64,000 nucleotides of DNA from an uncultured virus (IMG/VR IMGVR_UViG_3300042516_001356) (lineage: Duplodnaviria > Heunggongvirae > Uroviricota > Caudoviricetes): the IMG/VR virus record IMGVR_UViG_3300042516_001356. The stretch is one strand, 5' to 3'. The translations under genes were made by a program, and so were the position numbers. This document shows positions 6,044 to 28,885 of the stretch, in pieces. Position 1 is the stretch's first letter, and every line of letters starts with the position of its first letter. The notes below the pieces were generated by a model that worked only from the letters and a program-made list of their open reading frames with translations, had not been told where the DNA came from and searched no databases.

Positions 6044-6071
6044 ACAACCTTGGCATGTTGTAAAACTGCCT
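6044..6071 (+). ncRNA. 3' H-type pseudoknot element, copy 1
   Basis: ACAAC-CT-TGGCA-T-GTTGT-AAAAC-TGCCT, starting 6 nt after the hsp20 stop. Confidence 0.65.
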
Positions 6072-6109
6072 ATTTTTTGATATACTTAGATATAACTATA
6101 GGAGAGTTT

Positions 6110-6283
6110 ATGCCAAGATATGACTACAAATGCTCTATTTGTTCTTCACAGATTGAATTTGAAAAAAAGTTTGATGAAGAAATATTTCCAGTATGCTGTA
6201 ATCAATCTATGCAAAGGCTTTGGAGTGCCACTACTGCAATTTTCAACGGTAGTGGATTTTATTCAACCGACAACAGAAAGTAG
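6110..6283 (+). CDS. FmdB-family zinc-ribbon protein
   Basis: MPRYDYKC-x2-C...CC...FNGSGFYSTD; RBS AGGAG. Confidence 0.85.
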   Translation: MPRYDYKCSICSSQIEFEKKFDEEIFPVCCNQSMQRLWSATTAIFNGSGFYSTDNRK

Positions 6284-6298
6284 ATGTATAATAATACT

Positions 6299-6550
6299 AT
6301 GAATAGTGCAATTAAAGATCATCCAAGTGTAAAACCCAAAGAATGGCTTTTAAGTGCAAAAGATCGCTGTGATTCATGTGCAGCAGAAGCCCTTGTCAAA
6401 GTAACTGGATTAACTGGAGACCTAATGTTTTGTGGTCATCATTATAATAAAATTATGGATACTAAAGATGGGTATGCAAAAATGATGTCTTTTATGCTCA
6501 CAGTTATTGATGAGCGTGAAAAGTTAATTAAAGAACAAATAGGGGGTTAA
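6299..6550 (+). CDS. Hypothetical Zn-binding protein
   Basis: DRCDSC...LMFCGHH; TATAAT 6 nt upstream of ATG 6299. Confidence 0.7.
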   Translation: MNSAIKDHPSVKPKEWLLSAKDRCDSCAAEALVKVTGLTGDLMFCGHHYNKIMDTKDGYAKMMSFMLTVIDEREKLIKEQIGG

Positions 6551-6556
6551 CAAATA

Positions 6557-6964
6557 ATGTATGAGTATTTTGTAAAAGAAGTAAAAAATGTTGTTGATGG
6601 AGATACCATTGATGTAATTATTGATTTAGGGTTTGATATTTTATTTTCATCCCGTGTTCGCTTAGCAGGTATTGATACACCAGAATCACGTACAACAGAT
6701 AAGATTGAAAAGACTCTTGGTCTTGAATCTAAAGAATATTTAAAAAAACAACTTAAAGATGCAAAGTCTGTGGTTATTCGTACAGAAAAAATGAACTCAT
6801 CTGAAAAATATGGACGCATTCTCGGCTGGATATATATTAACGGAGAGTCTGAATCAATTAATAATAAGATGATTAACGATGGATATGCTTGGGGATATCT
6901 TGGTGAAACTAAGATTAAAGATTTTGAAGTTCTTAAAAAGGCTAGATCAAAGTCTGGCAAATGA
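6557..6964 (+). CDS. Thermonuclease (SNase-like)
   Basis: VVDGDTIDV, RVRLAGIDTPE, KYGRILG. Confidence 0.92.
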   Translation: MYEYFVKEVKNVVDGDTIDVIIDLGFDILFSSRVRLAGIDTPESRTTDKIEKTLGLESKEYLKKQLKDAKSVVIRTEKMNSSEKYGRILGWIYINGESESINNKMINDGYAWGYLGETKIKDFEVLKKARSKSGK

Positions 6965-7233
6965 AAAACGTTTTTTACTTTACAGCAGACTGGTGCAACC
7001 CTTGTAAAAAAACAAGACCAGTCGTTGAGGAATTAAAAAAAGAAGGATTTCAGTTTCAAATTATAGATGTTGATTATGAACAACTTTTGGCTAAACAATT
7101 TCAAGTTAAATCAATTCCTACATTTATTTTATTAGAAGACGGCAAAGAACTTGATCGTGTAACTGGGGCACAAACAAGGGAAAAGTTAAATGAGTTTATT
7201 AACTATGAAAAAAATATTCAAGAGAATATTTAA
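6961..7233 (+). CDS. Thioredoxin
   Basis: FTADWCNPCK, SIPTF. Confidence 0.92.
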   Translation: MKNVFYFTADWCNPCKKTRPVVEELKKEGFQFQIIDVDYEQLLAKQFQVKSIPTFILLEDGKELDRVTGAQTREKLNEFINYEKNIQENI

Positions 7234-7249
7234 TCCAGATAGGAAAAGT

Positions 7250-7582
7250 ATGATTTCAGATGAAAACGAAATGATTGAAAAATTAATTCTTGAAGGAGCA
7301 CTTGAGGTTGCGGGTATTGACTCTGAAGATGGTTCGTTGTTATATTCATTTACTTCCAAAATTCAACAGGTAATGCCAGAACTTTATAACGACCATCTCA
7401 ATAGAGTTAATGCTGAAATACTTTCATTATGGGAAAAAGGCTATGTAGACATAGACTTCTTGGCAAAAGAGCCAATAGTAACAGTCACAAATAAATCTTT
7501 TGATCCCGTAGAAATGTCAAAACTACGCAAGCAAGATGTTTGGGCTATAGAAGAACTTAAACGCCTAACTCGTAAAGAATAA
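7250..7582 (+). CDS. Hypothetical protein
   Basis: ORF with RBS AGGA in operon context. Confidence 0.65.
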   Translation: MISDENEMIEKLILEGALEVAGIDSEDGSLLYSFTSKIQQVMPELYNDHLNRVNAEILSLWEKGYVDIDFLAKEPIVTVTNKSFDPVEMSKLRKQDVWAIEELKRLTRKE

Positions 7583-7600
7583 CTCTGATATAATACTAAG

Positions 7601-8398
7601 ATGCCATATCGTATAGGTGCTAAGGGTTCATTTGGTTGTTCAGGCTATCCCGCTTTAAAAGAGGGGACAAATGAAGTTATGGGTTGTCACAAAACTCGTA
7701 GTGAAGCAGCAGCACAAATTTATGCAATTAATCGTTCCGAAGGGAATATAGGGAAAAGTATGAATGAAATTAAAGAAGGCGACTTTGTAACATATGTAGG
7801 CGAAGATGATGAAATTATGATTGGTCGTGTTGAATACGTAATGACTAATCCAGGATTACTTGGGTTACCAGGATCAGAATACTCTATGGAATACATGGAA
7901 AATGATAAGCCAGTTATTGTTCGTGAATATGAAGAAAAAGATGGCGCATGGGAAGAAAAATCTTATGTTTCTTATCATCGCATGTCTAAAGTTATTAAAA
8001 TTGAATCACTATCTGTATCAGTAGATCTTGTAGTTGAAATGGGCTCTAACGGATCTGGAATTCCATCAACAGCAGATTCTAAAACTATGATGGAAATGTA
8101 TGATACTCAAATTGGTAAATCAGAAGATATGGATGATGAAATGGAAAAAGCAAAAGAACCAAACTACGGAGATTTTATTCAACCTCGTAGGGGTGGATCA
8201 ACACCATCAAATCCAAAGTTATACGCAACAGTAGTGCAAGCAGCAAAAGATAAATTTGATGTTTATCCATCTGCAGTTGCTAATTCTTGGGTAGTTCAAG
8301 AATATAAGCGTCGTGGTGGTACATACAAGTCAGAGTCACAACCTACAACAAAAAGTATTTGGGATGGATCATTTAACCCTTTAAGGTTTAAAAAATAA
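7601..8398 (+). CDS. Multi-module hypothetical protein (C-terminal DUF5872-like)
   Basis: C-terminal NPKLY...FDVYPSA.ANSWVVQEYKRRGG; leaderless promoter. Confidence 0.6.
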   Translation: MPYRIGAKGSFGCSGYPALKEGTNEVMGCHKTRSEAAAQIYAINRSEGNIGKSMNEIKEGDFVTYVGEDDEIMIGRVEYVMTNPGLLGLPGSEYSMEYMENDKPVIVREYEEKDGAWEEKSYVSYHRMSKVIKIESLSVSVDLVVEMGSNGSGIPSTADSKTMMEMYDTQIGKSEDMDDEMEKAKEPNYGDFIQPRRGGSTPSNPKLYATVVQAAKDKFDVYPSAVANSWVVQEYKRRGGTYKSESQPTTKSIWDGSFNPLRFKK

Positions 8399-8544
8399 TG
8401 GCTAACAGATCTTCAGGTTCTTATTTTAAGAATAGTCCATTTAATTCTATTCAAATTAAAGATGGAAAAATTGTTCGTTTAAGAAAAGATGGCACAATTA
8501 AAGCAGAACTAGGTCCATACATAAAGAATCAAGGGAAAAAATAA
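8398..8544 (+). CDS. Small basic hypothetical protein (48 aa, not in ORF track)
   Basis: TAATG coupling; MANRSSGSYFKN...KDGKIVRLRKDG. Confidence 0.6.
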   Translation: MANRSSGSYFKNSPFNSIQIKDGKIVRLRKDGTIKAELGPYIKNQGKK

Positions 8545-19562: not shown

Positions 19563-19924
19563 ATTACTAGTATACCCCACCTATCTTGTTTTGTAAAGTT
19601 TTTATTTATTTTTTAAAACTGGATCAAGCCTATCCCAATATCCACTATTATTACCTTGGTATATTTCTCCAGTTTCTTTATCTATAAGCATCCACTTTTC
19701 AGGACATCTTGTGTGAACTACTAAATCTATTGGCCTGGTAAGTTCCTTTATTTTTTTTTGTTTTCTCATTTATGTGTTTTCATATGATTATAAATAGTTT
19801 GATGTGCCATTGTTGACCTCACCTGTATTTCCTTACTACATGTTTCACAAATAACAAATTTATTGGCTGACATACAATTCAGTATATCAAATTTATAACG
19901 GTATGTCAATACGTAATATAAAAT

Positions 19925-20647
19925 TTAATCGTATTGTTTTTTTGTCCAAAATGTTTTTTTATACCATCCTTTAAAAACACTACTAGCAGAATCACTATGA
20001 CTCTTTCCAATTTCTACCAGACCTTTTGTTTTTTCTGAGTTCCAGTCTTCTTGGCGAAACGGTATTAGTTGTGCTATTGGCGTTCCTTGCTCAATGAGTC
20101 CTGTAAATCCCTCTTTAAGGTAAAATGGAACATTTCCATCTTCGCTTAATACCAATCCTCCATCAAGCACTGCACTTAAAGTTGTAAATGGAAGATCGTG
20201 TCTATTTAGTGGATGAGTAAATAAAATACTATATCCTTTTGGAACGCCATAGGAAACTCCTGGGTGCCAAACAAATTCTGTAGGATAATGACCAATTGGA
20301 ACAAGTTTTTCACTTGCTACATTATTTCTGACATTTGGTGTGCCTTTTGCACCTTTTGGCCATAAAATAAATGGAACCCCGTCTCTTATTTCAACATATA
20401 GATCAAAAGGAAGGGTCATTACGTAGCCAATAGTTAATGAATCTAAAAATGGTACACATAATTTAACTGTTGACCTAATATTAAAATCATCACTAAACAT
20501 TACATCATCATAATATTGTGGTATTTTTTTATACCAATCTGGTACAACTTTTTTTGTTGGAACTATTGAGTTTGGATAAGTTGGAACGGCAGACTCATAT
20601 CTTAAAATTGGTTTTTGTTTTTTATTAAAAATACTTTTTTTAAACAT
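19925..20647 (-). CDS. DUF6065-like / dUTPase-fold paralog 3
   Basis: PDWYK, TVKLCVPFLDSL..GY, PKGYS, HPLNRHDLPF, GTPIAQLIPF. Confidence 0.65.
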   Translation of the reverse strand: MFKKSIFNKKQKPILRYESAVPTYPNSIVPTKKVVPDWYKKIPQYYDDVMFSDDFNIRSTVKLCVPFLDSLTIGYVMTLPFDLYVEIRDGVPFILWPKGAKGTPNVRNNVASEKLVPIGHYPTEFVWHPGVSYGVPKGYSILFTHPLNRHDLPFTTLSAVLDGGLVLSEDGNVPFYLKEGFTGLIEQGTPIAQLIPFRQEDWNSEKTKGLVEIGKSHSDSASSVFKGWYKKTFWTKKQYD

Positions 20648-20711
20648 GTCTTCTCCATTTTATCATATATGTTTGTATATTAATCTTACCATTTTTTTGC
20701 GATATAAGCAA

Positions 20712-20812
20712 ATGAGCAGTTTTTTACAGTCGTGCTCAGGACTATCCCAGTTATTTAATGTCGCTGTCTCCCCCGACATATCTGCGACTCCACGGTGAGG
20801 TGGTGCAGAAGA
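20712..20812 (-). ncRNA. Candidate ~100-nt structured ncRNA ending in pseudoknot copy 2
   Basis: -10-like TATGAT at 20820-20825; stems TCTGC/GCAGA, CCAC/GTGG, ATGTCG/CGACAT; pseudoknot at 20714-20743. Confidence 0.55.
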
Positions 20813-20845
20813 CAATGTTATCATAATTTTAAAAAACAAAAGTTT

Positions 20846-20906
20846 GGCGCAAAATAGAAGTAAAAACCTTATTGTGCTCTACGAAAGCACTATTGGTTAA
20901 TATCCT
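20846..20906 (-). repeat. Rod-hairpin element copy A
   Basis: About 61-bp imperfect repeat of 21549-21610. Confidence 0.65.
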
Positions 20907-21015
20907 CTACCTTTTTCATTATACGTTTAACCATATCCTCTCTTTCTTGAAGTGATAAGTTAACACCTGTATCTATTTCTGTCATTGAGATGGCTAAATC
21001 AACTAAATCTTTCAT
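20890..21015 (-). CDS. Small hypothetical protein
   Basis: RBS AAGGAG before MKDLVDL. Confidence 0.5.
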   Translation of the reverse strand: MKDLVDLAISMTEIDTGVNLSLQEREDMVKRIMKKVEDINQ

Positions 21016-21104
21016 TGTTCTCCTTACAGTCAGGGCATTGCTTAGTAGGCCTATCTGTCCTATCTGGCACGGTAAAAATAGATCCACAATCAAAACAAAG
21101 AACT

Positions 21105-21299
21105 TTAGTCATCTGACTCCTTTTTCCACTGTTCTTCCCATAACCCCATAAGAGACTTATTGCCTACATCATTAAAATAATAAAGGTTTTTCTTTGCATT
21201 ATATGTCCATCCATACCAAAGATCATTTTCAATCCAAGTAAGGTTTGTAGGTCTTTCATTTCTGGCTTCTATAATCATTTGATCAAAGTGGTATTTCAT
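21105..21299 (-). CDS. Hypothetical Trp-rich protein
   Basis: ORF overlapping the upstream gene end. Confidence 0.55.
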   Translation of the reverse strand: MKYHFDQMIIEARNERPTNLTWIENDLWYGWTYNAKKNLYYFNDVGNKSLMGLWEEQWKKESDD

Positions 21300-21513
21300 T
21301 TACAGGTTCCTTTGACCAGTGGATATATGACCTAATGTAAACTACTGCATAGGCAAGGGCGGAAAATATAAAACCATATTGGTTTGTTATTATTGCATAG
21401 GCTATCCATAAGCATTCATTAAATAATAAAACAAACCATCCCCATTTATCTTTTCGGCCGACAAAATATATGCCTGCAACACCGATAACCGCTAATACCC
21501 ATGACCACCACAT
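21283..21513 (-). CDS. Small three-TM membrane protein (PnuC/PQ-loop-like half transporter)
   Basis: WSWVLAVIGVAG...KWGW...NECLWIAY...YIHW; leaderless promoter. Confidence 0.6.
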   Translation of the reverse strand: MWWSWVLAVIGVAGIYFVGRKDKWGWFVLLFNECLWIAYAIITNQYGFIFSALAYAVVYIRSYIHWSKEPVNEIPL

Positions 21514-21548
21514 ATACTTATTGTATCAAAGTTTGGCGGTAAAGGCAA

Positions 21549-21610
21549 GGCGCAAAATAGAACTATCAAACCTTATCCTGCCCAACATGGGCACTATCGG
21601 TTAGTATCCT
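21549..21610 (-). repeat. Rod-hairpin element copy B
   Basis: GGCGCAAAATAGAA...AAACCTTAT..TGC..GCACTAT.GGTTA.TATCCT shared with copy A. Confidence 0.65.
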
Positions 21611-21777
21611 AAAATCGGCGGGTATACAAAGAATGTCGTAATACCCCTAGTGTAATAACAAACCATGTATTCCAGATATCCCCCATATCCCAGATACAAA
21701 GGTTTGACCAATGTGTCCAATAACACTGGTTTGATATGGACAATATGGAGCCAGAGAGATGGTTTGATACCCTGCGA

Positions 21778-22500
21778 TTATTTAAATTTTTTCTTAGAGT
21801 GATGGTTTTTTAAGTAATGACCTACCATTGTGCTATTAAAGTTTTTTTCTTGAATTACATTATTGTATTCACCATCTTCATAATAGTCAAAAGTAGAATC
21901 CCAATCATCTCGCTTAAAAGGAATAATTTGTACCATTGGAGTGCCCTTTTCAACGATGCCTTCAAAACCAGTTTTAACCCACATTGGAAAGACCAACTCA
22001 AGAGTTGAACTATCTGTATCTACAACTGCTGTAATTGCTTTAAATGCAAGATCGTTGTATCCAAATGGAGAAGTTATTAAACATGAATAGCCTTTGGGGG
22101 TTTGTGGTATCCAACAATTAAGATATTTATATACTACCTGATCATATCCTATTGGTGCTGGAATCTCCCTTGATGACTGACCATGTAATGTAAAAACATC
22201 CTGTAAAGTCTTCCAATATATATCAGGATACCCATTACCTTGTTCAACCATAACATCTGTCCATAAAGGGATAATGTATCCAGAACTTATGCTATCTAAT
22301 AATGGAACACATTTTTTGTATGTTGCGTTGGCAGTTCTGTTTCTAAAATGAAGTTTCCCATCTTGTGGATACCCAGGCAAATTTGCATAAGGTTCAGAAT
22401 TAGTAAACCACTTAGGAAGTTGTTTTACTGCAGGATATGGCTTAAGTTGTACGTCAAACTCAGTCTTACTTCTAGCCCTAAAGTTTATATTTTTTGACAT
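21778..22500 (-). CDS. DUF6065-like / dUTPase-fold paralog 4
   Basis: PKWF, TYKKCVPLLDSISSGY, TPKGYS, AVVDTD, GTPMVQIIPFKR. Confidence 0.65.
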   Translation of the reverse strand: MSKNINFRARSKTEFDVQLKPYPAVKQLPKWFTNSEPYANLPGYPQDGKLHFRNRTANATYKKCVPLLDSISSGYIIPLWTDVMVEQGNGYPDIYWKTLQDVFTLHGQSSREIPAPIGYDQVVYKYLNCWIPQTPKGYSCLITSPFGYNDLAFKAITAVVDTDSSTLELVFPMWVKTGFEGIVEKGTPMVQIIPFKRDDWDSTFDYYEDGEYNNVIQEKNFNSTMVGHYLKNHHSKKKFK

Positions 22501-22509
22501 TTACCCACC

Positions 22510-23240
22510 TAACTATACAAGTATAGCATTCGTTAATTCCTTAGTCAATACAAAATAAATCTTACTGATATTTTTTAGATGTGGTCTTGGTGGAGCAAAG
22601 TGGAGCATAGTGGGTGATTGAGCGCTTTTATAGGGGGCTTCGTAATCCCCTGGCGGCCAAACCTCCCTATCCCAAACCTCCCAAACCTTTCTATCCCGCA
22701 TATCTGGTATGCATTATATACCCAAAACCATGGTTTGTCAAACCTTTATAGCCTAAAAACCCCCCATAAAAATGCCCAGAAAATATAACAAAAAGTTATA
22801 AAACACCAGGAAAAAATCTAGAAAGGTTTGATAACTATGGTAAAAGTTTGTATTATTCTTTAATTTATTTCCCCGCCCCATAATGTTTAATAATACTGTA
22901 ATTCAGCGGCAAGGCGGGGCTGCAAAAAGGCGGGGATAAAAAGATATACAACATATCACTAGTATAAGAGACAAGAGATTCCTGATAGGAAGGTTTGTTA
23001 GATATAAAGGTTTGTTATGAATCTGGAAAAAATTTCAAACCTTCGTAATAGGTTTTTAGGATATAAAGGTTTGGAGGTTTGTCAAACTTTCTGGGATTTT
23101 TTGAATTGGGTTCTTAATGTTTTTTTCGTAAATGAGGTTTGGTAGTCGGGCTATGGATCTGGGAAAAAAAATGATCTATCGTAATAAGATTTTAAGGTTT
23201 GGGATGTCCACTTTGTCCTAATATTACCCGACCCGCCAGC
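22510..23240. repeat. Non-coding tract rich in short repeats (AGGTTTG/CAAACC, TCGTAA, GGCGGG)
   Basis: More than 10 GGTTTG/CAAACC copies in about 730 bp; no credible ORF. Confidence 0.7.
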
Positions 23241-23241
23241 G

Positions 23242-23505
23242 CTACATTTCTGCGCTACCTAGCAATTCATCAAGGCTTTCAAACCCTGTATCTTTAACAG
23301 TAAGAGCAGCCAATAATAAATCAAAGGTTTCATTTATATACATCTCTGACTGATCGCTTGGCAAAACAATCTCATTCATTAAAAGATAAGCCATTGGCAA
23401 ACCTAGATCGTTGTACTCTATAAAATCATCTAGATGATCATCATCACGATAGTTCATCCATAGTTCTGCTAAGATACTTATCTTATTTGAAAAATCTGTC
23501 GTCAT
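23242..23505 (-). CDS. Hypothetical early protein
   Basis: RBS AGGGGCGG; FIEYNDLGLP. Confidence 0.7.
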   Translation of the reverse strand: MTTDFSNKISILAELWMNYRDDDHLDDFIEYNDLGLPMAYLLMNEIVLPSDQSEMYINETFDLLLAALTVKDTGFESLDELLGSAEM

Positions 23506-23719
23506 ATGTACCGCCCCTAACTTCATCTACTATTGGTTTTTGGAACTGTGCGCTTTCTAATACTTCTATGGCACGACTAAAAATAACATAAGGAGTATCA
23601 CGAGCAATATAATATCCAACTTTTTCTAAGTCAAGATGAAAGTCAGATAGTAAAACAGTAATGCGCTCTGCTACCTTTTCCTCTTTAGTCTTTAACTTAG
23701 TGCGGTTAATTTTATACAC
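23483..23719 (-). CDS. Hypothetical early protein
   Basis: ORF overlapping the next gene; TGATATAAT promoter upstream. Confidence 0.65.
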   Translation of the reverse strand: MYKINRTKLKTKEEKVAERITVLLSDFHLDLEKVGYYIARDTPYVIFSRAIEVLESAQFQKPIVDEVRGGTYDDRFFK

Positions 23720-23753
23720 GATACCCCCAAAGTCATTATATCAAAAAAAGAAA

Positions 23754-23787
23754 GAGGGCGCAACCCCACCACAAAGTTACGCCCTCC
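23754..23787 (-). terminator. Hairpin terminator
   Basis: GAGGGCGCAAC/GTTACGCCCTC stem; T tract on the minus strand. Confidence 0.7.
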
Positions 23788-23795
23788 TTATTGTA

Positions 23796-24170
23796 TCAGC
23801 GAGAGGTGACCCCTACCCCCGCTATCGCAGCAACAGGCATGTAAGCCTGAATAAATTTATCCCAGTCTACAGATACATTATCAGTAACAGTCTTGGTAGT
23901 GAAGTCAACAAGGACGGTAAACTCACCTAGGTCATATCCGTCATTAGTAATTGCATAGATGCCAAACCCTGTCTCTTCTAGAATGCTATCTTGTATAAGA
24001 TAACTAATAATCATCCGTGTTCCATATGAGCCGTCACTTAATCTAGGCTTTGCATGCTGCAGGGCCATTGCTAGGTCCCGCTGCCATTCAGTCTGTCCCC
24101 AGTGGCTGTATAGGACAACCATAGGACCTGACTCGCTGTCTTTGAATACGTAGTTAATCCGTGCTCCCAT
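23796..24170 (-). CDS. Hypothetical early protein
   Basis: MGAR...LYSHWG. Confidence 0.7.
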   Translation of the reverse strand: MGARINYVFKDSESGPMVVLYSHWGQTEWQRDLAMALQHAKPRLSDGSYGTRMIISYLIQDSILEETGFGIYAITNDGYDLGEFTVLVDFTTKTVTDNVSVDWDKFIQAYMPVAAIAGVGVTSR

Positions 24171-24325
24171 TATTCTGGATCCTTTTCTGTTAGTACTGGT
24201 ACGATTGATAGTTGGTTTTCTATCTCACGATAGATATCTTGTTCGTCTTGATTGTCAGTCTCATACACAAAATTCATGTAATCACCTGTTGGCTCAAAGA
24301 TTATTTCAACATCCCATGTAGCCAT
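24170..24325 (-). CDS. Small acidic protein (not in ORF track)
   Basis: TAATG coupling at both ends; MATWDVEIIFEP. Confidence 0.6.
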   Translation of the reverse strand: MATWDVEIIFEPTGDYMNFVYETDNQDEQDIYREIENQLSIVPVLTEKDPE

Positions 24326-24663
24326 TAGTCATTCTCCTCATCTAGGTCGCCTTCAAAGTCAATGATTACTTTAGATACCCTGTCATCACCGTTAAGGACT
24401 ACATATACAGGATATAAACCATCGCCATATCCTGTGCTAAATACTACAGAATTGGCATTGCCTAACTCGCCATAATTGCTAGCAATAGTAGTTGCACTTG
24501 CTCCATGATAAGAGTATTGATTTTGTTTGCCATCAAGGTTCCAATCTTCATTTTTATTAGTATCCCAGTCATCAAGATAGCATGGGTCGCCTACCATAGC
24601 CTGACCGCTATCTACTGAAAAGCGACCTGCTAATATTAGGCTATCTTTATTTATTTGGGTCAT
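24325..24663 (-). CDS. DUF4241-like protein
   Basis: FSVDSGQAMVGDPCY, FSTGYGDGLYPVY. Confidence 0.7.
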   Translation of the reverse strand: MTQINKDSLILAGRFSVDSGQAMVGDPCYLDDWDTNKNEDWNLDGKQNQYSYHGASATTIASNYGELGNANSVVFSTGYGDGLYPVYVVLNGDDRVSKVIIDFEGDLDEEND

Positions 24664-24672
24664 ACTGTCTCC

Positions 24673-25131
24673 TTAGTTGAGTGTGTGGTTTTCTATTTCT
24701 TCTAACTCTTTGATTTCTTCTATTGTAGCGCAACCAGCGCATTTTTCCAAATCCTCAAATTTGTCATAGTGTAGAGAGGCCATCTCATCTTCCCAGATCT
24801 CACCACAGTTAGAGCATTCGTAAACATCTTCGCTACTGATTTGTATCTGATAGTCCTTGCTACCATTAAAGGGCACGGTAGTTACGAAGTACCCAATCCT
24901 ATTAACTATACGCATACCCTGAAATATATAGGTGCCGCCATTGTCTCCGTCACAATAAGTCCATATCCTGTTAGGATCTTGGGCTTTGACAAAGTCTAAC
25001 TCTTTACCATATGTCTCAAACATATAGCCTTGCTCCCCATCGTTAAACGAGGCATTAGGGTCTATAAGGTTTGGGAGTGGCTTAAAGGTGTTAAACCACT
25101 CTTCCTCTGTAAGTTCTATAAGTTCGTTCAT
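24673..25131 (-). CDS. Hypothetical protein with C-terminal Zn ribbon
   Basis: MFETYG, RIWTY, VNRIGYFVT, two CxxC. Confidence 0.7.
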   Translation of the reverse strand: MNELIELTEEEWFNTFKPLPNLIDPNASFNDGEQGYMFETYGKELDFVKAQDPNRIWTYCDGDNGGTYIFQGMRIVNRIGYFVTTVPFNGSKDYQIQISSEDVYECSNCGEIWEDEMASLHYDKFEDLEKCAGCATIEEIKELEEIENHTLN

Positions 25132-25139
25132 GGGTCTCC

Positions 25140-25661
25140 TTAGAAGTGGAAGTCAATAGGTACTAAGAATAACATGGCAGGGTTCTTATTGTCAATAGCG
25201 CTTTGGATATACTCCATGCTAGCGGTATACTCAATAAGATCGTAAAAGTAACTGTTAGGAGTATAGTGTTCATCCATTAGGTTACTTGCTGACTTAATAT
25301 AGTATGAGTTCATGTCAAACCTTAATTCCCCTAATGAGGCATTGTTTGATATATAGTCAACCATATTACTAATAAATTTATCAGTGTCTATCTTAGACAT
25401 ACAGTCTTGCATTTCTTTTATCCTTGCTTTTTTACAATCTTCAACTATACTATCAAACAAGGCAGGCTTCTCAGTATATGAGACAATCATGTCAGATGAA
25501 TCATTGTATTGGCTATCGCTCCAACGACCACCACCAACAACATGCCAGTCTGACCATTCAACAAACCTTTGTCCGTCATCATTAATTAATCTATCAGTGA
25601 CATTGGCTCTTGCGTTTTCTTTATCCTCTGCTTCTACTAGCCAGTAGTGTAGCGTATGCAT
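25140..25661 (-). CDS. Hypothetical early protein
   Basis: WSDWHVVGGGRWS...IDFHF. Confidence 0.7.
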   Translation of the reverse strand: MHTLHYWLVEAEDKENARANVTDRLINDDGQRFVEWSDWHVVGGGRWSDSQYNDSSDMIVSYTEKPALFDSIVEDCKKARIKEMQDCMSKIDTDKFISNMVDYISNNASLGELRFDMNSYYIKSASNLMDEHYTPNSYFYDLIEYTASMEYIQSAIDNKNPAMLFLVPIDFHF

Positions 25662-25684
25662 TCAGGGTCTCTTTCTGTAGGTTC

Positions 25685-25924
25685 TTAATATAAAGTATAA
25701 GGGTTTGTGTCTATCTTTACAACTTCTGGCTTTGTGACTTTGGTCACCTTATTGAGTTTCTTTGCCTTGACCCAACTTCCTGGTTTATGGGCTGGAGTAT
25801 TTCCAATATTAATAACAGCACTATTGCCACAGATACAGTCAGCATCCAGGGCAGGCTTAACTTTGGCGGTAACCTCAATTAAAGCATCACAGTTAGTACA
25901 TAAGTAATCATATCTATTCCACAT
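25685..25924 (-). CDS. Small Zn-ribbon protein
   Basis: YDYLCTNC...CICG. Confidence 0.6.
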   Translation of the reverse strand: MWNRYDYLCTNCDALIEVTAKVKPALDADCICGNSAVINIGNTPAHKPGSWVKAKKLNKVTKVTKPEVVKIDTNPYTLY

Positions 25925-26069
25925 ACATCTCCCAAGGTTTTACATCGTAGTTGCCACAGATCTCTTGAATGTTATCCTCTAATGAGTTAATAAATAAACT
26001 AAGTTCATTCATGTCTAGATGTTTTATCATATTATCAGTGATAGTAAATTGCCATACTTGTTTTGACAT
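25914..26069 (-). CDS. Small hypothetical protein (not in ORF track)
   Basis: 51 aa MSKQVWQF...; coupled to the upstream gene. Confidence 0.55.
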   Translation of the reverse strand: MSKQVWQFTITDNMIKHLDMNELSLFINSLEDNIQEICGNYDVKPWEMYVE

Positions 26070-26230
26070 TACTCACCCCAATATTTGACAATTGTATTTA
26101 ATGTGGTATGTAAGTTGCAATCGCAGTCCCCTGCGTTCATTGCCTCCATAAATTCAAAGTGCGATAGGTTATCTTCATAGATAGTAGTTACGAGTTCATC
26201 TATTGTGTATGGTTTGTATGTAGTGGTCAT
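26069..26230 (-). CDS. Small hypothetical protein (not in ORF track)
   Basis: 53 aa MTTTYKPY...; TTGTAT-N17-TACAAT promoter 6 nt upstream. Confidence 0.6.
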   Translation of the reverse strand: MTTTYKPYTIDELVTTIYEDNLSHFEFMEAMNAGDCDCNLHTTLNTIVKYWGE

Positions 26231-26321
26231 AAATTAATTGTAGCAAAAAATGGGGAAAAATACAAGTATTCTTAATAGAAAAAATAAATAACATTTTTGT
26301 TATAAAACCCGACCCCGCTTG

Positions 26322-26395
26322 CGATCTGGACGGGACTTGAACCCGCAACCTTTACCGTGACAGGGTAACGATCTAACCAATTGATCTACCAGACC
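26322..26395 (-). tRNA. tRNA-Asp (GTC)
   Basis: Reverse complement: GGTCTGG acceptor, TTACC-CTGTCAC-GGTAA, T-loop TTCAAGT. Confidence 0.93.
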
Positions 26396-26403
26396 TTGAA
26401 GGT

Positions 26404-26430
26404 GAGCAGTTTAAAATCATGCTCAGGATT
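26404..26430 (-). ncRNA. 3' pseudoknot element, copy 3
   Basis: AATC-CT-GAGCA-T-GATT-TTAAAC-TGCTC between the DUF932 stop and tRNA-Asp. Confidence 0.7.
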
Positions 26431-26435
26431 TTTTG

Positions 26436-27458
26436 TTATGCTAGTTGCATAACATTTTGTACAACTTTTAGCAGACGATTTTTTTCTGCATTGATTGATG
26501 GATCAAAACCACTTGCTGATGCTAATAAACTTTCGTTATTACCACCACGAGCAGAACGGTACCAATCAAGACGCTCAGTTAATGCATTGAACGCACCCCA
26601 CGCACTACCAGCAATCATGCCATTAAATTCGCCAGTGTAGATGTCATTAATGGTATCAACTTTATTTTCCCATTTTTTAACAGCACCCTTAGCATCTTTT
26701 TCTGGCTTAGGATAAGCAGCAAGAATAATGTCGTTAAACATTTTAGCATCAACAGTCTTTTCAATCATTGCCTTAGCCATGATATCAAATTCATCCATGT
26801 ACGCATTAGCAAGACCTAAAGTCTCACGAGCAACTTGCACCTTACCATTGGCAGTTTGCGTGTGGCGAATCTTGAAAGATTGCTTGATACCCTTATTCTT
26901 TTTGCGACCTACGCCACCAAGAGCAAGGTTAAGAGTATTAGCACACACAACACGAACAGGTGTTATGCTTGCTTGAATAGCGATTGAGCCATCGTGTGAT
27001 GTGTTAATAAGCAAATAAGTCTTTACCTTATCTGCAACACCATTAGGGTCAAGAATTGTTTCACGCTCTAATGCTAGTGAGCCAAATACTACACGACCAC
27101 CACGAATTGAGCCAGCAGTCTCCCAACGTCCACCGCCATCAAGAATGTTATCACCAAATGAGAATAGTTCCTCATTTTGCAATGGCACATAACGCTCACC
27201 AACAATTCCCAAAACATCAGTTTGAGATTTATCAGTAGGGTTTGTACGCACTACATATTGGTAATTCTTATCAGATGTTAGCGCAGATGGAATTTCTAAT
27301 TCCTCTAAACGAACATTCCAATTATTAAGGTTAGCAGTCTCTAGCATTTCGCTAGTTGTTTTTTCATCTGTAAACACAGTACCTAAACCATGCCAAGCAG
27401 GTTCACGGAATGATGCAAAACTTGCTACACCATTTTGTGATTCTAAATCATGAGCCAT
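26436..27458 (-). CDS. DUF932/DUF945 (phage/plasmid LGT family) protein
   Basis: PAWHGLG, WETAGSIRGG, NTSHDGS, TPVRVVCANTL, IRHT; RBS GAAAGGA. Confidence 0.88.
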   Translation of the reverse strand: MAHDLESQNGVASFASFREPAWHGLGTVFTDEKTTSEMLETANLNNWNVRLEELEIPSALTSDKNYQYVVRTNPTDKSQTDVLGIVGERYVPLQNEELFSFGDNILDGGGRWETAGSIRGGRVVFGSLALERETILDPNGVADKVKTYLLINTSHDGSIAIQASITPVRVVCANTLNLALGGVGRKKNKGIKQSFKIRHTQTANGKVQVARETLGLANAYMDEFDIMAKAMIEKTVDAKMFNDIILAAYPKPEKDAKGAVKKWENKVDTINDIYTGEFNGMIAGSAWGAFNALTERLDWYRSARGGNNESLLASASGFDPSINAEKNRLLKVVQNVMQLA

Positions 27459-27484
27459 TTTTATCCTTTCGGTTGTTTTAATTA

Positions 27485-27513
27485 ATTTTAGCACTCATGG
27501 CTGACAATGTCAA
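27485..27513 (-). promoter_or_regulatory. Promoter with PafBC/RecA-NDp element
   Basis: TTGACA-T-TGTCAG-N10-TAAAAT. Confidence 0.75.
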
Positions 27514-27602
27514 TCAGGACTGGGGAAAATAGTTTAATCTTCTTAAATGGTATAAATCGGACATTTGGGATATTCCCCGAGGATTTTTGCTGGGGATTTG
27601 TG

Positions 27603-27629
27603 AGGCAGTTTAAAGACGTGCCCAGGTCC
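27603..27629 (-). ncRNA. 3' pseudoknot element, copy 4
   Basis: GGAC-CT-GGGCA-C-GTCT-TTAAAC-TGCCT. Confidence 0.7.
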
Positions 27630-27644
27630 TTTAGTAGCCCCCTA

Positions 27645-28055
27645 CTAAAACTCCACTCCACTAAGAGAACTAGAAACATAAGTTATCTTGTCAGTGTCAT
27701 ATGAGATTGCGTCAAAATCAATATCATGAATGATATCTTCTACATCTTCACCTGCAGGTACATTAATGGTCATTGAATATTCTACGGTTACCATGACCTC
27801 AACTTCATTAGTTAATTCAAATCCACAGATTTCAGCAATTGCTTCTGCCTGCTCTTTTGTGATATCTTGATTTTCTAATTCAGTCGTGGTCCACGTATGC
27901 ATTTGATCACGCATTGCTGTTAGGTTAGCAGCGCCTGTGTAGTCACGTTGTGTTACTCTTTGGATGTGTTGCTCCAGTGTTAGAATGCGTTCATTTTTTT
28001 CTGCAATCTGAGATCTAAGATAATCTTCAGTTGCATGTATTGTTGTTTGCTCCAT
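27645..28055 (-). CDS. Hypothetical early protein
   Basis: RBS GAAAGTAGG; coiled-coil N-terminus. Confidence 0.7.
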   Translation of the reverse strand: MEQTTIHATEDYLRSQIAEKNERILTLEQHIQRVTQRDYTGAANLTAMRDQMHTWTTTELENQDITKEQAEAIAEICGFELTNEVEVMVTVEYSMTINVPAGEDVEDIIHDIDFDAISYDTDKITYVSSSLSGVEF

Positions 28056-28077
28056 AAGGGGCCTACTTTCTTAGTTA

Positions 28078-28110
28078 GAGGGGGGCAGGTTGTCTACCCC
28101 CCCTGTTTAT
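28078..28110. terminator. Hairpin terminator
   Basis: GGGGGGCAG...CTACCCCCC stem between genes. Confidence 0.55.
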
Positions 28111-28281
28111 TTATTTAGTTGTTGATACCATTGCTAAACGACGAGAGCCGTTTGCTAACTGTAGCGATACTCTAGTTAGTTTAGAGTTGATAGGTGAGAA
28201 TTTTACAATTCTACCTGTAACGCCAGTTTTGCTTGTGGTGAATAGATCACCTAGTTGATATGTGTATCCGCCTAGTGTCAT
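28111..28281 (-). CDS. Small SH3-like beta protein (paralog of 28905-29072; not in ORF track)
   Basis: MTLGGYTYQLGDLFTTSKTGVTGRIVK; RBS AAAAGGA. Confidence 0.7.
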   Translation of the reverse strand: MTLGGYTYQLGDLFTTSKTGVTGRIVKFSPINSKLTRVSLQLANGSRRLAMVSTTK

Positions 28282-28372
28282 GATTTTCCTTTTCTGTTTA
28301 TGGTGGTTTGTATTATTTAATTTTACTAGATTTTGACGGGGGAGTCAAATACCCTCCCCCATCTCTATCTAA

Positions 28373-28795
28373 TTAGAGATAACGAGCAACTGCGTTGTAT
28401 GTAGAAGTATTAACTACTTCCTCATCTGTCATCTTGAGGATACGAATAGCGTTAGACATTTCCTCTTTCTGCTCATTGTAAGTATGAGAGTGGATAACCT
28501 CAAAATCCTTTTCAGGCTCTTTAGGAAATTCTCCATCTTTGAGAATTAAATCAAAATCAACATTTAGTGTTGAGTTCCAAGAACGATAATTGGTTCTGAT
28601 GTTCTCAGCCTTAGCAATTTTACCTACTGCGAACTCAGCAAGTTCTTTTTGCCAAGCCTTGTAAGCCTTTTGATACTTTGCTTCGTTTTCACCTTGTGTA
28701 GCATAGTCTTTTTCTAGTTGTGCTAGTTTAGTTTCTAGTGCTTTGATTACTCTAGCAGTAGGGATTTTTACTGAGATTGCTTTTCCTCTTGACAT
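28373..28795 (-). CDS. Hypothetical early protein
   Basis: RBS AAAGGA; own promoter. Confidence 0.75.
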   Translation of the reverse strand: MSRGKAISVKIPTARVIKALETKLAQLEKDYATQGENEAKYQKAYKAWQKELAEFAVGKIAKAENIRTNYRSWNSTLNVDFDLILKDGEFPKEPEKDFEVIHSHTYNEQKEEMSNAIRILKMTDEEVVNTSTYNAVARYL

Positions 28796-28827
28796 GGTGT
28801 TCCTTTTCTTTAGTGGGTTATATTTCT

Positions 28828-28849
28828 AGTATAGGGGGTTGGTCTGACA
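28828..28849 (-). promoter_or_regulatory. Promoter with PafBC/RecA-NDp element
   Basis: TGTCAG-ACCAACCCCC-TATACT; no -35 match. Confidence 0.75.
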
Positions 28850-28856
28850 TTGTGGT

Positions 28857-28885
28857 GAGCAGTTTTAGTAGTCATGCTCAGGACT
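28857..28885 (-). ncRNA. 3' pseudoknot element, copy 5
   Basis: AGTC-CT-GAGCA-T-GACT-ACTAAAAC-TGCTC. Confidence 0.7.

What the first reader, a model, noticed from the sequence alone, without database searches (positions are those of the whole stretch)
6044..28885. Five-copy covarying H-type pseudoknot at transcript 3' ends
Seen: pattern S1-CT-S2-Y-S1'-(n)AAAC-S2' at 6044-6071 (+), and at 20714-20743, 26404-26430, 27603-27629 and 28857-28885 (-). S1 covaries (CAAC/GTTG, AGTC/GACT, AATC/GATT, GGAC/GTCT) and S2 covaries (GAGCA/TGCTC, GGGCA/TGCCT, GGCA/TGCC), while the linkers CT and AAAC are fixed. Four copies lie 5-20 nt after a stop codon on the sense strand; one of these is 8 nt before tRNA-Asp. 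Inference: an exonuclease block, processing or termination signal, or protein-binding scaffold. From memory it resembles the core of RAGATH-18-type RNAs (unverified); no TnpB-like nuclease was recognised in the window.
Basis: partly seen in the sequence, partly recalled or inferred. Interest (0 to 1): 0.8.

Follow-up and report, generated by a model that had tools for sequence, protein, structure and literature searches.

The report
Widespread small phage RNA pseudoknot
A 27-base knotted RNA fold sits just after the stop codons of six genes in this lake phage and recurs in very different phages, apparently uncatalogued, probably marking and protecting the ends of message segments.

Summary
All five copies are at the stated places. 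A covariance model found a sixth at 31276-31302 (-).

The motif is NNNC-CU-GRGCA-Y-GNNN-(N)nAAAC-UGCYC. In 116 distinct copies both stems covary:
- the two middle pairs of S1 pair in 116/116, with 4-5 pair types;
- one S2 pair is A-U in 95 and G-C in 21, never broken.

It occurs in cultured phages of Actinobacteria, Firmicutes, Cyanobacteria and Proteobacteria, in a Microviridae record and in some bacterial MAGs. Rfam 15 has no match, and the RAGATH-18 resemblance fails.

Context:
- it is co-oriented with genes and anchored to the upstream stop codon, with a sharp minimum spacing of 5 nt;
- a G-poor, U-rich tract of about 10 nt follows;
- in 14/135 copies a tRNA gene starts 3-14 nt downstream.

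Best reading (about 0.35): a boundary element of the upstream cistron that stays folded beside the terminating ribosome and caps RNA 3' ends made just downstream. No RNA end was observed, so function is inferred.

Earlier notes of this scan describe similar phage pseudoknots on other DNA. I could not check whether they are the same motif.

The parts
6045..6071 (+). Pseudoknot copy 1 (S1 CAAC/GUUG, S2 GGCA/UGCC). It lies 6 nt after the Hsp20 gene stop and is followed by AUUUUUU.
   Evidence: 39.5 bits
20714..20743 (-). Pseudoknot copy 2 (AGUC/GACU, GAGCA/UGCUC, longer third loop). No ORF ends close upstream. The next gene starts 66 nt downstream.
   Evidence: (39.5 bits)
26404..26430 (-). Pseudoknot copy 3 (AAUC/GAUU). 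It lies 5 nt after the DUF932 gene stop and 8 nt before tRNA-Asp.
   Evidence: 51.4 bits
27603..27629 (-). Pseudoknot copy 4 (GGAC/GUCU, GGGCA/UGCCU). It lies 15 nt after the stop of a 136-aa ORF. A strong sigma-70-like promoter lies about 90 nt downstream.
   Evidence: (38.8 bits)
28857..28885 (-). Pseudoknot copy 5 (AGUC/GACU, third loop ACUAAAAC). It lies 19 nt after the stop of a 70-aa ORF.
   Evidence: 46.5 bits
31276..31302 (-). Pseudoknot copy 6, new here (AAUC/GAUA, S2 GGACA/UGUCC with two compensated pairs). It lies 5 nt after the stop of a 48-aa ORF.
   Evidence: (16.1 bits, E 0.0077)
26321..26395 (-). tRNA-Asp(GUC), starting 8 nt after copy 3. The same arrangement recurs in relatives.
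28887..28900 (-). Extra 5-bp hairpin (UUAGC...GCUAA) between the stop codon and copy 5. Relatives carry UUCCU...AGGAA or UUCCC...GGGAA at the same place.
5622..6038 (+). Hsp20 gene whose stop precedes copy 1. Hsp20 genes precede the motif in 5 of the 46 other upstream ORFs scanned.
26436..27494 (-). DUF932 gene whose stop precedes copy 3. DUF932 genes precede the motif in 5 of the 46 other upstream ORFs scanned.
27645..28055 (-). 136-aa ORF whose stop precedes copy 4.
28905..29117 (-). 70-aa ORF (C-terminus ...RWTTWTAKS) whose stop precedes the hairpin and copy 5. Homologous small ORFs precede the same motif variant in other contigs.
31308..31454 (-). 48-aa hydrophobic ORF whose stop precedes copy 6.

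Best explanation
The element is a self-contained RNA of about 27 nt that folds into a compact H-type pseudoknot. S1 has 3-4 bp of free sequence and closes with an almost invariant C-G pair. Loop 1 is C-U. S2 has 5-6 bp with consensus GRGCA/UGCYC. A single non-G nucleotide sits at the junction. The third loop ends in AAAC and can lie in the groove of S1.

It belongs to the 3' untranslated end of the upstream cistron. It sits as close to the stop codon as it can while staying outside the mRNA channel of the terminating ribosome, so it remains folded while that gene is translated.

I propose that it marks a segment boundary in polycistronic phage RNA. RNA 3' ends would be created a few nucleotides downstream in three ways:
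- RNase P cutting at the 5' end of an adjoining tRNA;
- leaky termination or pausing of RNA polymerase in the U-rich, G-poor tract;
- endonuclease cuts in that single-stranded tract.

The knot, alone or held by a conserved host factor, would then cap the upstream message against 3'-to-5' degradation without being an efficient terminator, so downstream genes and tRNAs are still made.

Shown: the fold, its conservation, its orientation, its spacing and its neighbours. Inferred: every step that involves RNA ends, nucleases or the polymerase.
For: Fold.
- In 116 distinct copies, 95.9% of cells pair against 80.0% in shuffles (0 of 500 reach it) and 25-40% when partners are slid.
- S1 pairs 8-21 and 9-20 pair in 116/116, with 5 and 4 pair types. 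S2 pair 14-39 is A-U in 95 and G-C in 21, with none unpaired.
- Copies outside the search pattern add compensations at S2 positions 1, 3 and 4, and one flip of the closing C-G pair of S1.

RNA-level element.
- All 42 tRNA genes in the 124 loci lie on the motif's strand.
- The longest open frame is on the motif's strand in 61/71 cases upstream and 58/71 downstream.
- Window copies follow the strand of their gene blocks.

Anchored to the upstream gene.
- Of 135 viral copies, 65 have an ORF of at least 40 aa running to the last stop before the motif, and 55 of these end within 30 nt.
- The gaps are 5 nt in 16, 6 in 5, 7 in 5, 8 in 4 and 9 in 5. Only one gap is below 5. The upstream proteins in the 5-nt group are mostly unrelated.
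- The knot is nearer the upstream stop than the downstream start in 48/72.
- Eight pairs share the upstream family but differ downstream, against 2 pairs of the reverse kind (weak).

3' ends are plausibly made just behind it.
- A tRNA gene starts 3-14 nt downstream on the same strand in 14/135 copies, where about 0.14 is expected. None lies closer than 54 nt upstream.
- The same arrangement is seen in the window (8 nt) and in Arthrobacter phage Molivia after its SSB gene (3 nt).
- The 10 nt behind the knot hold 3-12% G and are U-rich. At least 6 of 10 are T in 26/133 copies, against 5/133 and 6/133 in control windows (Wilcoxon p 2e-6).
- No ordinary hairpin terminator lies within 120 nt downstream in 0/81.

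No phage-specific partner is needed. The motif occurs in a 5-kb Microviridae record, in its intergenic gap between the vP5 and capsid genes, and in phages of very different hosts.

From established knowledge (recalled, not tested here):
- the ribosome's helicase site lies about 11 nt 3' of the first P-site base, which fits a 5-nt minimum after the stop codon;
- RNase III sites of T7 and the leaky terminators of phiX174 are precedents for intercistronic structures that stabilise upstream phage mRNA;
- the MALAT1 triple helix upstream of an RNase P site is a precedent for a triplex cap beside a tRNA-like cut.
Against: - No RNA 3' end was observed. The three metatranscriptome runs were available only as contigs.
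- Nearest-neighbour energies are small. S1 alone gives +0.7 to -2.5 kcal/mol and S2 alone -3.3 to -4.2 kcal/mol in the six window copies. That is far below ordinary protective hairpins, so a passive block needs strong tertiary contacts or a bound factor.
- About 14 conserved nucleotides across phages of unrelated hosts is more than a simple roadblock should need. It points to specific recognition or intrinsic activity.
- In Staphylococcus Phietavirus phages and in the Microviridae record, the knot sits just before the scaffold or capsid genes. There the downstream genes need the boost, not the upstream ones.
- Only about 20% of copies have a clear U tract and 10% an adjoining tRNA. For the rest, the source of a nearby 3' end is assumed.
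- In bacterial MAGs the stop codon of a mini-ORF lies inside the knot, which breaks the 5-nt rule seen in phages.
Confidence: 0.35

Rival explanations
1. It is a cut site in its own right. Either it is a very small self-cleaving ribozyme, or it mimics a tRNA acceptor arm and is cut by RNase P, which exists in every host. Either way it would punctuate polycistronic phage RNA into gene-sized pieces.
For: - Junction and loop nucleotides are strongly conserved across hosts. This is typical of catalytic or specifically recognised RNAs.
- It sits in the intergenic slots of phage operons and next to tRNAs, where known small ribozymes of phages also occur (recalled).
- It occurs in a Microviridae record with no RNA-processing genes.
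- U precedes the first G of S2, and A follows S2' in 72% of copies, then C in 43% and C in 35%. This recalls the -1 U, G1-C72, A73 and CC of a tRNA end.
- Pseudoknotted tRNA-like ends of plant viruses are RNase P substrates in vitro (recalled).
Against: - At 27 nt it is far smaller than any known natural self-cleaving ribozyme (recalled).
- No ribozyme family in Rfam matches it.
- The CC after the knot is only weakly conserved.
- Where a real tRNA follows within 3-14 nt, a second RNase P site would be redundant.
- The junction nucleotide varies among U, C and A.
Confidence: 0.2
2. It is a binding site for a conserved host factor or a small ligand, and it regulates the neighbouring genes. It could be a translational operator or enhancer for the downstream gene, an element that docks on the terminating ribosome, or a riboswitch-like aptamer.
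For: - Its size and architecture resemble the smallest riboswitch aptamers (recalled).
- The downstream start codon lies 20-33 nt behind the knot in about half of the 112 copies with a called downstream ORF. An RBS plus start lies within 40 nt in 50/134.
- It sits before the scaffold or capsid genes in Staphylococcus phages and in a Microviridae record.
- In Omnitrophota and Desulfobacterota MAGs it is conserved at the end of a Cys-rich mini-ORF. In the two Omnitrophota loci with enough flank (L138, L144) an Rrf2 regulator gene and a ferredoxin-like gene follow, and the gene further upstream differs.
- The sharp 5-nt spacing to the stop codon matches the spacing of ribosome-stalling pseudoknots (recalled).
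Against: - The neighbouring genes have no common function. They include Hsp20, DUF932, SSB-like, RNR, tail chaperone, lysin and methylase genes, and many unknowns.
- tRNA genes follow directly in 10% of copies, which translation control cannot explain.
- The strand S2' does not overlap ribosome-binding sites.
- The junction base that would face a ligand is not fixed.
- Several copies with different junction bases occur in one genome.
Confidence: 0.17
3. It acts on RNA polymerase as it is made, as a pseudoknot-type pause or weak intrinsic terminator. S2 closes directly before a weak, U-rich, G-poor RNA-DNA hybrid.
For: - The G-poor, U-rich tract spans about 10 nt, the length of the transcription hybrid. 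At least 6 of 10 are T in 26/133 copies against 5/133 in the control window.
- Runs of 5-8 U start 1-2 nt after S2' in window copy 1, in the Staphylococcus phages and in several contigs.
- Ordinary terminators are absent nearby (0/81) and scarce in the window's early region: one strong terminator on the - strand between 19.5 and 32.5 kb.
- The 5-nt rule would also keep a closely following ribosome from blocking the fold.
Against: - About 80% of copies have no U run, and the first base after S2' is usually A.
- tRNA genes 3-14 nt downstream must be transcribed through the element.
- The helices are short and weak.
Confidence: 0.12
4. It is a recoding signal that stimulates read-through or frameshifting at the upstream stop codon.
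For: - The architecture and the 5-9 nt spacing are those of viral frameshift and read-through pseudoknots (recalled).
- One copy follows a tail assembly chaperone gene.
Against: - No slippery sequence appears before the stops. The C-terminal peptides and codons are unrelated.
- UAA is the stop in 40 of the 56 cases counted in the first tally of stop codons.
- The flanks carry no conserved extension frame.
- tRNA genes follow some copies.
Confidence: 0.03
5. It works as DNA, as a protein-binding site, a recombination hotspot or a mobile-element end. The apparent stems would then be inverted repeats for a dimeric protein.
For: - Assembly graphs of lake metagenomes break at or next to the edges of copy 5: loose ends at 28856 and 28891, and joints at 28856 and at 26429 inside copy 3. 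Any repeat would do the same.
- The motif sits between cassettes of small accessory genes.
Against: - Orientation is strict relative to genes and tRNAs.
- The two helices interleave.
- G-U pairs are tolerated: 16 G-U in pair 13-40, and G-U or U-G in S1.
- The insert in the third loop varies from 0 to 9 nt.
- No transposase or nuclease gene accompanies it.
Confidence: 0.03

Closest known systems
Luteovirus-type -1 frameshift pseudoknots (beet western yellows virus class)
   Same: Both are very compact H-type knots. Both have a 2-nt first loop starting with C, a single wedge nucleotide at the junction and an A-rich last loop facing S1. Both lie 5-9 nt behind the codon on which the ribosome sits. 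The comparison with that class is from recall.
   Different: The present motif follows ordinary stop codons with no slippery site. Its S2 is longer (5-6 bp). It occurs in DNA phages in up to 6-7 copies per genome, and it also precedes tRNA genes.
preQ1-I riboswitch aptamer (Rfam RF00522)
   Same: Both are H-type pseudoknots of about 30 nt whose A-rich tail ends in AAC just before the second helix (recalled).
   Different: Rfam gives no hit at E<=10. The second loop is one variable base, not 4-6 nt with a fixed ligand-pairing C. There is no link to queuosine genes. The 3' strand of S2 does not cover a ribosome-binding site.
Intercistronic stabilising structures of phage mRNAs (T7 RNase III sites, phiX174 leaky terminators, T4-type promoter-early stem-loops)
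   Same: All are repeated structured elements between phage genes that define and protect mRNA ends, or delimit gene cassettes, without fully stopping transcription (recalled).
   Different: Those are plain hairpins specific to one phage group. This is a pseudoknot with a conserved core shared across unrelated phages and hosts.
MALAT1/MEN-beta 3' triple helix upstream of the RNase P-cut tRNA-like mascRNA
   Same: In both, a triplex-type element lies a few nucleotides upstream of an RNase P cleavage site, so that the cut leaves it at the 3' end. Here, 14/135 copies lie 3-14 nt before a tRNA.
   Different: That case is eukaryotic and has a different fold (a U-rich hairpin clamping an A tract). 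Only 10% of the present copies adjoin a tRNA. Cleavage and protection were not tested.
RAGATH-18 / IS607 TnpB guide RNA
   Same: Nothing beyond being a structured RNA found near mobile or phage DNA.
   Different: There is no covariance-model match and no TnpB or transposase nearby. RAGATH-18-derived RNAs accompany IS607 TnpB genes (PMC11061315, abstract in the listing).
Pistol ribozyme, 5' domain (Rfam RF02679), and pseudoknotted tRNA-like acceptor arms (TYMV type)
   Same: All have a short hairpin whose loop pairs with a downstream strand after an A-rich linker. The strand order matches that of pseudoknot acceptor arms that RNase P can cut (recalled).
   Different: There are no P2 or P3 helices and no cleavage dinucleotide. 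There is no conserved CCA. Rfam gives no hit.

Membership tests
RAGATH-18 (Rfam) / IS607 TnpB reRNA | Match to the family covariance model | tested here: not met
   cmscan found no hit at gathering score on the window. It found none at E<=10 on 14 viral loci or on a 76-nt piece around copy 5.
RAGATH-18 (Rfam) / IS607 TnpB reRNA | Adjacent TnpB or IS607 transposase gene | tested here: not met
   No transposase or TnpB appeared among 57 window ORFs (PHROGs) or among 50 upstream ORFs (Pfam).
preQ1-I riboswitch | Match to RF00522, and a fixed ligand-pairing C in a 4-6 nt second loop | tested here: not met
   Rfam gives no hit. The second loop is a single base: U in 111 and C in 23 of 134 copies, and A in further copies.
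Known self-cleaving ribozymes (hammerhead, twister, pistol, hatchet, HDV-like) | Match to the family models | tested here: not met
   Rfam gives no hit at E<=10.
Known self-cleaving ribozymes (hammerhead, twister, pistol, hatchet, HDV-like) | Site-specific self-cleavage | not testable with these tools
   This needs an in-vitro transcript and a cleavage assay.
H-type RNA pseudoknot (structural class) | Two interleaved helices, each supported by compensatory changes | tested here: met
   Three S1 pairs and one S2 pair change on both sides. In all, 179 cells are doubly changed against 50.5 in shuffles. Further S2 compensations appear.
Intrinsic (Rho-independent) terminator | Stable G+C-rich hairpin directly followed by a U tract | tested here: inconclusive
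   A U-rich tract (at least 6 T in 10) follows 26/133 copies against 5/133 in the control window. The helices are only -3 to -4 kcal/mol each, and most copies lack a U run.
Programmed frameshift or read-through stimulator | Slippery heptamer or leaky stop, plus an extended reading frame | tested here: not met
   The sequences before the stops are unrelated. UAA predominates, 40 of 56. The flanks are not conserved.
Exoribonuclease-resistant or 3'-end-protecting RNA | RNA ends accumulate at the element, and nucleases stall in vitro | not testable with these tools
   Only contig-level metatranscriptome data were available.

The most novel reading that the evidence does not exclude
The motif is a new class of universal 'punctuation' RNA of bacterial viruses. 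It would be a 27-nt pseudoknot that either cleaves itself, which would make it the smallest natural ribozyme, or is read directly by machinery shared by all bacteria (RNase P, the terminating ribosome or RNA polymerase). That would explain why the same core works unchanged in tailed phages of at least four bacterial phyla, in a 5-kb single-stranded-DNA phage and in some bacteria.
Probability: 0.2. Interest if true: 0.9.

Novelty: new variant of a known kind. Interest (0 to 1): 0.78.

Why it matters
Small conserved RNA folds with this much covariation are rare, and most abundant ones were thought to be catalogued. This one is missing from Rfam 15. It occurs in phages of Actinobacteria, Firmicutes, Cyanobacteria and Proteobacteria, in T4-like cyanophages, crAss-like phages and a Microviridae record, and in some bacterial MAGs.

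If it sets or protects RNA ends, it would explain how phages with few ordinary terminators tune the amounts of neighbouring gene products, and how tRNA genes are embedded in messages. It would also give a 27-nt portable part for stabilising or insulating synthetic transcripts.

If it is catalytic, or read by the ribosome, RNase P or polymerase, it would be a new basic mechanism. Cultured, harmless carriers exist (Arthrobacter phage Molivia, M. smegmatis phage Labelle, Paracoccus phage ParMal1), so the question can be tested directly.

Tried and rejected
- **Rfam.** Three scans gave only tRNAs and chance hits: gathering score on the window, E<=10 on 14 loci, and E<=10 on 76 nt.
- **Near-identical phage records.** Megablast of 10 kb of the window against GenBank phages found none. 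The window's own assembly is not held; the nearest record, G001, carries three of the copies.
- **RNA evidence.** 24 runs hold parts of the stretch, and three are metatranscriptomes with 5-7% of the words. Laid, they gave only short contigs, so nothing can be said about ends, strand or level. Breaks at the motif edges are what any repeat causes.
- **Literature.**
  - String searches for the core 8-9-mers returned 3,444 papers; the 30 listed are primer or virus sequences.
  - Word searches on phage pseudoknots, RNase P, exonucleases and xrRNA found no description.
  - The 2023 catalogue of 10,006 viral candidate RNAs (PMC10690425) may contain the motif. I read passages, and a search of its supplements for the core strings found nothing. 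Files 1, 2 and 4, probably the alignments, could not be searched.
  - The 2026 Minerva preprint does not mention it in the passages seen.
- **The motif's own UGA as a stop codon.** Eleven candidate frames were found, but at most 3 of 135 are credible ORFs.
- **Selenocysteine reading of the in-knot UGA in bacterial mini-ORFs.** Rejected, because the same position is CGA or UGG in relatives.
- **The mini-ORF itself.** It has no Pfam or NCBIfam family.
- **E. coli genomes.** No blast hit for one common variant. The search is weak for a 34-nt query.
- **Earlier notes of this scan.** Searches by sequence and by place returned nothing.

Full report
**The observation**

Reading the five sites shows the same layout each time:
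- a 4-nt strand (S1) ending in C;
- CU;
- a 5-nt strand (S2; GAGCA, GGGCA or UGGCA);
- one pyrimidine;
- the complement of S1, starting with G;
- 5-9 nt ending in AAAC;
- the complement of S2.

The strict pattern CCTGRGCAYG-N3-14-AAACTGCY matches four times in the window and never in 100 shuffles. The + strand copy differs at one base. A purely structural pattern is not specific: 8 hits against 0-6 in 30 shuffles. What makes the case is the fixed core combined with free but complementary S1 strands.

Copy 2 has no credible ORF ending nearby.

**The window**

It is part of a large freshwater phage with 36% G+C. It holds portal, protease, tail-fibre, ribonucleotide reductase, Hsp20 and glycosyltransferase genes and four tRNAs. 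Runs labelled lake-water and freshwater metagenomes hold most of the stretch. No close GenBank phage was found.

The copies follow the strand of their gene blocks. Copy 1 lies in the + block. The others lie in the - strand block of small, early-type genes.

**A large family**

It gave 137 matches, 134 of them distinct.
- The two middle S1 pairs form in 134/134 and 133/134.
- The outer S1 pair forms in 111/134.
- The variable S2 pair is A-U in 113 and G-C in 20, with one exception that is a chance hit: its S1 does not pair either.

The pattern left these positions free, so this is an unbiased test.

On an alignment of 116 distinct copies, the named pseudoknot pairs in 95.9% of cells. Shuffles give 80.0% (0 of 500 reach the observed value), and sliding the partners gives 25-40%. 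There are 179 doubly changed cells against 50.5 expected. The U of loop 1 can pair with the A that follows S2' in 91/116.

A covariance model built on this alignment (R1) recovered the five window copies at 38.8-51.4 bits. It also found a sixth at 31276-31302 (-), 5 nt after the stop of a 48-aa ORF, whose S2 is GGACA/UGUCC.

Copies found by the model outside the strict pattern show more variation:
- compensations at S2 positions 1 (A-U), 3 (A-U) and 4 (U-G or U-A);
- one flip of the closing C-G pair of S1 to G-C;
- A at the junction;
- CC in loop 1;
- AAAG or AAAA in place of AAAC.

The fold is as well supported as comparative analysis allows. The flanks are not conserved, so the element is self-contained.

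**Where it occurs**

| Host or group | Records |
|---|---|
| Mycobacterium | phage Labelle |
| Arthrobacter | phage Molivia |
| Paracoccus | ParMal1 (CM, 43.0 bits) and ParKuw1 (BLAST only), T7-like |
| Bacillus | jumbo phages Edson (CM, 40.1 bits) and WH1 (BLAST only) |
| Synechococcus | phage S-EIVl (six full copies and a partial one) |
| Synechococcus | T4-like cyanophages S-H35 and S-RIM4 (about 38 bits) |
| Staphylococcus | 83 phage records by BLAST; phiETA and B166 confirmed by the model (38-40 bits) |
| Gut | crAss-like phage cr7_1 (28 bits) |
| Unknown | a 5-kb Microviridae record (30 bits) |
| Microcystis, Nostoc, Lactobacillus, Moorella, Geobacillus, gut Clostridia | BLAST-level hits in phage records, not confirmed by the model |

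In bacterial and archaeal genome contigs the strict pattern gives mostly chance hits, as expected from the size of that collection. Still, 39 of 122 matches have both stems paired.

Several of these lie in Omnitrophota and Desulfobacterota MAGs, where the knot overlaps the last codons of a conserved Cys-rich mini-ORF. In the two Omnitrophota loci with enough flank (L138, L144) an Rrf2 regulator gene and a ferredoxin-like gene follow.

One common variant gave no hit in 5,426 E. coli genomes.

**What is known**

Rfam 15 has no match at any threshold tried. RAGATH-18-derived RNAs are guide RNAs of IS607 TnpB nucleases (PMC11061315, abstract seen in the listing). Nothing here fits that: there is no model match and no transposase.

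Literature searches by core strings and by topic found no description. The 2023 catalogue of viral candidate RNAs (PMC10690425) could hold the motif unnamed. Part of its supplements could not be searched.

Earlier notes of this scan describe small intergenic phage pseudoknots on other DNA: e1-5771013, behind an SSB gene; e1-5960828; and e1-5840385. I could not compare sequences, so identity is open. In Molivia the present motif does follow the SSB gene.

**Anatomy of the context**

1. *Orientation.* All 42 tRNA genes in the 124 loci lie on the motif's strand. The longest open frames upstream and downstream are on its strand in 61/71 and 58/71 cases. In all five cultured phages first inspected, it lies between co-directional genes.
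2. *Anchoring to the upstream stop codon.*
   - Of 135 distinct viral copies, 65 have an ORF of at least 40 aa running to the last stop before the motif, and 55 of these end within 30 nt.
   - The gaps are 5 nt (16), 6 (5), 7 (5), 8 (4) and 9 (5). Only one gap is below 5.
   - The sixteen 5-nt cases follow mostly unrelated proteins, so the edge is not an effect of common descent.
   - S1 is free in sequence and could hold a stop codon, yet gaps of 0-4 are almost unused.
   - Using only ORFs of at least 60 aa on both sides, the knot is nearer the upstream stop in 48/72. In spacers of 150-300 nt the median distances are 19 nt upstream and 155 nt downstream.
   - The motif's own UGA serves as a stop for at most 3 credible ORFs of 135.
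3. *What follows.*
   - The next 10 nt are G-poor (3-12% G) and U-rich. At least 6 of 10 are T in 26/133, against 5/133 and 6/133 in control windows.
   - Some copies have runs of 5-8 U starting 1-2 nt after S2'.
   - No ordinary hairpin terminator lies within 120 nt in 0/81.
4. *tRNA genes.* A tRNA gene starts 3-14 nt behind the knot in 14/135 copies, where about 0.14 is expected by chance. The tRNAs are Asp, Arg, Ala, Leu, Gln, Ser, Asn and Trp. None lies directly upstream. The window (8 nt) and Molivia (3 nt) add two more cases.
5. *Upstream genes are diverse.* Among the 46 non-window upstream ORFs scanned, Hsp20 and DUF932 each occur five times, plus once each in the window. SSB-like proteins, ribonucleotide reductase, a tail chaperone, a lysin and a methylase also appear, and most ORFs have no family.
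6. *Before capsid genes.* In Staphylococcus Phietavirus phages and in the Microviridae record, the knot lies just before the scaffold or capsid genes.
7. *Energies.* S1 alone scores +0.7 to -2.5 kcal/mol and S2 alone -3.3 to -4.2 kcal/mol.

**Interpretation**

The strict orientation, tolerated G-U pairs, interleaved helices and variable third loop make this an RNA element, not a DNA site.

The anchoring to the stop codon makes it part of the upstream cistron's 3' end. The minimum of 5 nt fits the distance at which a structure stays outside the mRNA channel of a ribosome that has the stop codon in its A site. That distance is recalled from work on the ribosomal helicase and on frameshift spacers; it was not tested here. 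So the element seems selected to stay folded while the upstream gene is translated, and to sit as near to it as that allows.

Three things happen just behind it in different copies: a tRNA 5' end (an RNase P site), a U run, or a G-poor single-stranded tract. Each is a way of making an RNA 3' end a few nucleotides downstream.

The reading that ties these together is a non-terminating boundary element that ends up at the 3' terminus of the upstream message and protects it. I give this about 0.35.

The main doubts are these:
- no RNA end has been seen;
- the helices are weak;
- the core is conserved far beyond what a passive block needs;
- in two phage groups the position favours the downstream capsid genes.

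For these reasons the rivals keep real weight:
- a self-cutting or RNase P-cut punctuation mark (0.2);
- a site for a conserved host factor or ligand that controls neighbouring genes (0.17);
- a pause or weak-terminator signal for RNA polymerase (0.12).

Recoding and DNA-level roles are unlikely (0.03 each).

The presence of the motif in a Microviridae genome with no RNA-processing genes argues that any partner is a host component shared by all bacteria, or that there is none.

**Comparison and novelty**

In shape it is closest to the luteovirus class of frameshift pseudoknots and to the smallest riboswitch aptamers (recalled). In role it is closest to the intercistronic stabilising structures of T7, phiX174 and T4-type phages, and to the triple helix upstream of an RNase P site in MALAT1 (recalled).

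It is a member of none of these, and every family test run here failed. It is a new, abundant RNA motif of a known general kind (a cis-acting H-type pseudoknot) with an unusual and sharply defined placement.

**Limits**

- The primary sample was drawn with a strict pattern, which hides variation in the core. The model-based hits partly correct this.
- ORF calls are heuristic.
- All statements about mechanism are inference.

Noticed in passing
L138, L144, L230, L237 (Omnitrophota MAGs); L193, L175 (Desulfobacterota MAGs): A conserved mini-ORF of 24-29 aa, counted from its RBS-proximal start, with a strong RBS (...RP/T-V/A-AHC-K/S-E/D-GC...SWA). It ends inside the pseudoknot, at the knot's UGA or at the UAA of the third loop. 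In L138 and L144 an Rrf2 regulator gene and a ferredoxin-like gene follow. It matches no Pfam or NCBIfam family.
   Followed up: partly
window 28887-28900 (-); L271, L289, L304, L312, L365: One subfamily of the motif (third loop ACUAAAAC, behind small ORFs ending ...TTWTAK) carries an extra 5-bp hairpin directly after the stop codon. The hairpin covaries: UUAGC/GCUAA, UUCCU/AGGAA and UUCCC/GGGAA.
   Followed up: partly
L407 474-837 (crAss-like phage cr7_1): ARAGORN and the record annotate a permuted tmRNA that contains a copy of the pseudoknot (603-629) between a tRNA-like 3' half and the predicted tag frame. A tRNA-Cys call overlaps its end. The tmRNA call may be an artefact.
   Followed up: no
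L406 2599-2625 (Microviridae sp. MW202581): The motif occupies the intergenic gap between the vP5 gene and a small ORF plus the major capsid gene. This is the only sizeable gap among the features listed for this 5-kb single-stranded-DNA phage.
   Followed up: partly
window 3601-4386 (+), 19925-20647 (-), 21778-22500 (-), 42568-43254 (+): Four paralogous genes of PHROG 7084 (unknown function) are scattered over both gene blocks.
   Followed up: no
window 19500-32500 (-): There are several near-consensus sigma-70-type promoters (for example 22741-22713 with 12/12, and 27513-27485 and 19909-19881 with 11/12). Only one strong hairpin terminator is present (23789-23751). The promoter count does not exceed that in shuffles.
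   Followed up: no
window 26200-29200 in run X1 and the RNA runs: Metagenome contigs break or join at or next to the motif edges: loose ends at 28856 and 28891, and joints 28751-28856 and 26429-28392. A dispersed repeat in a population of related phages would do this.
   Followed up: no
window 5310-5540 (+): A cluster of tRNA-Gly, tRNA-Glu and tRNA-Met lies 80 nt upstream of the Hsp20 gene that precedes copy 1. No pseudoknot adjoins this cluster.
   Followed up: no
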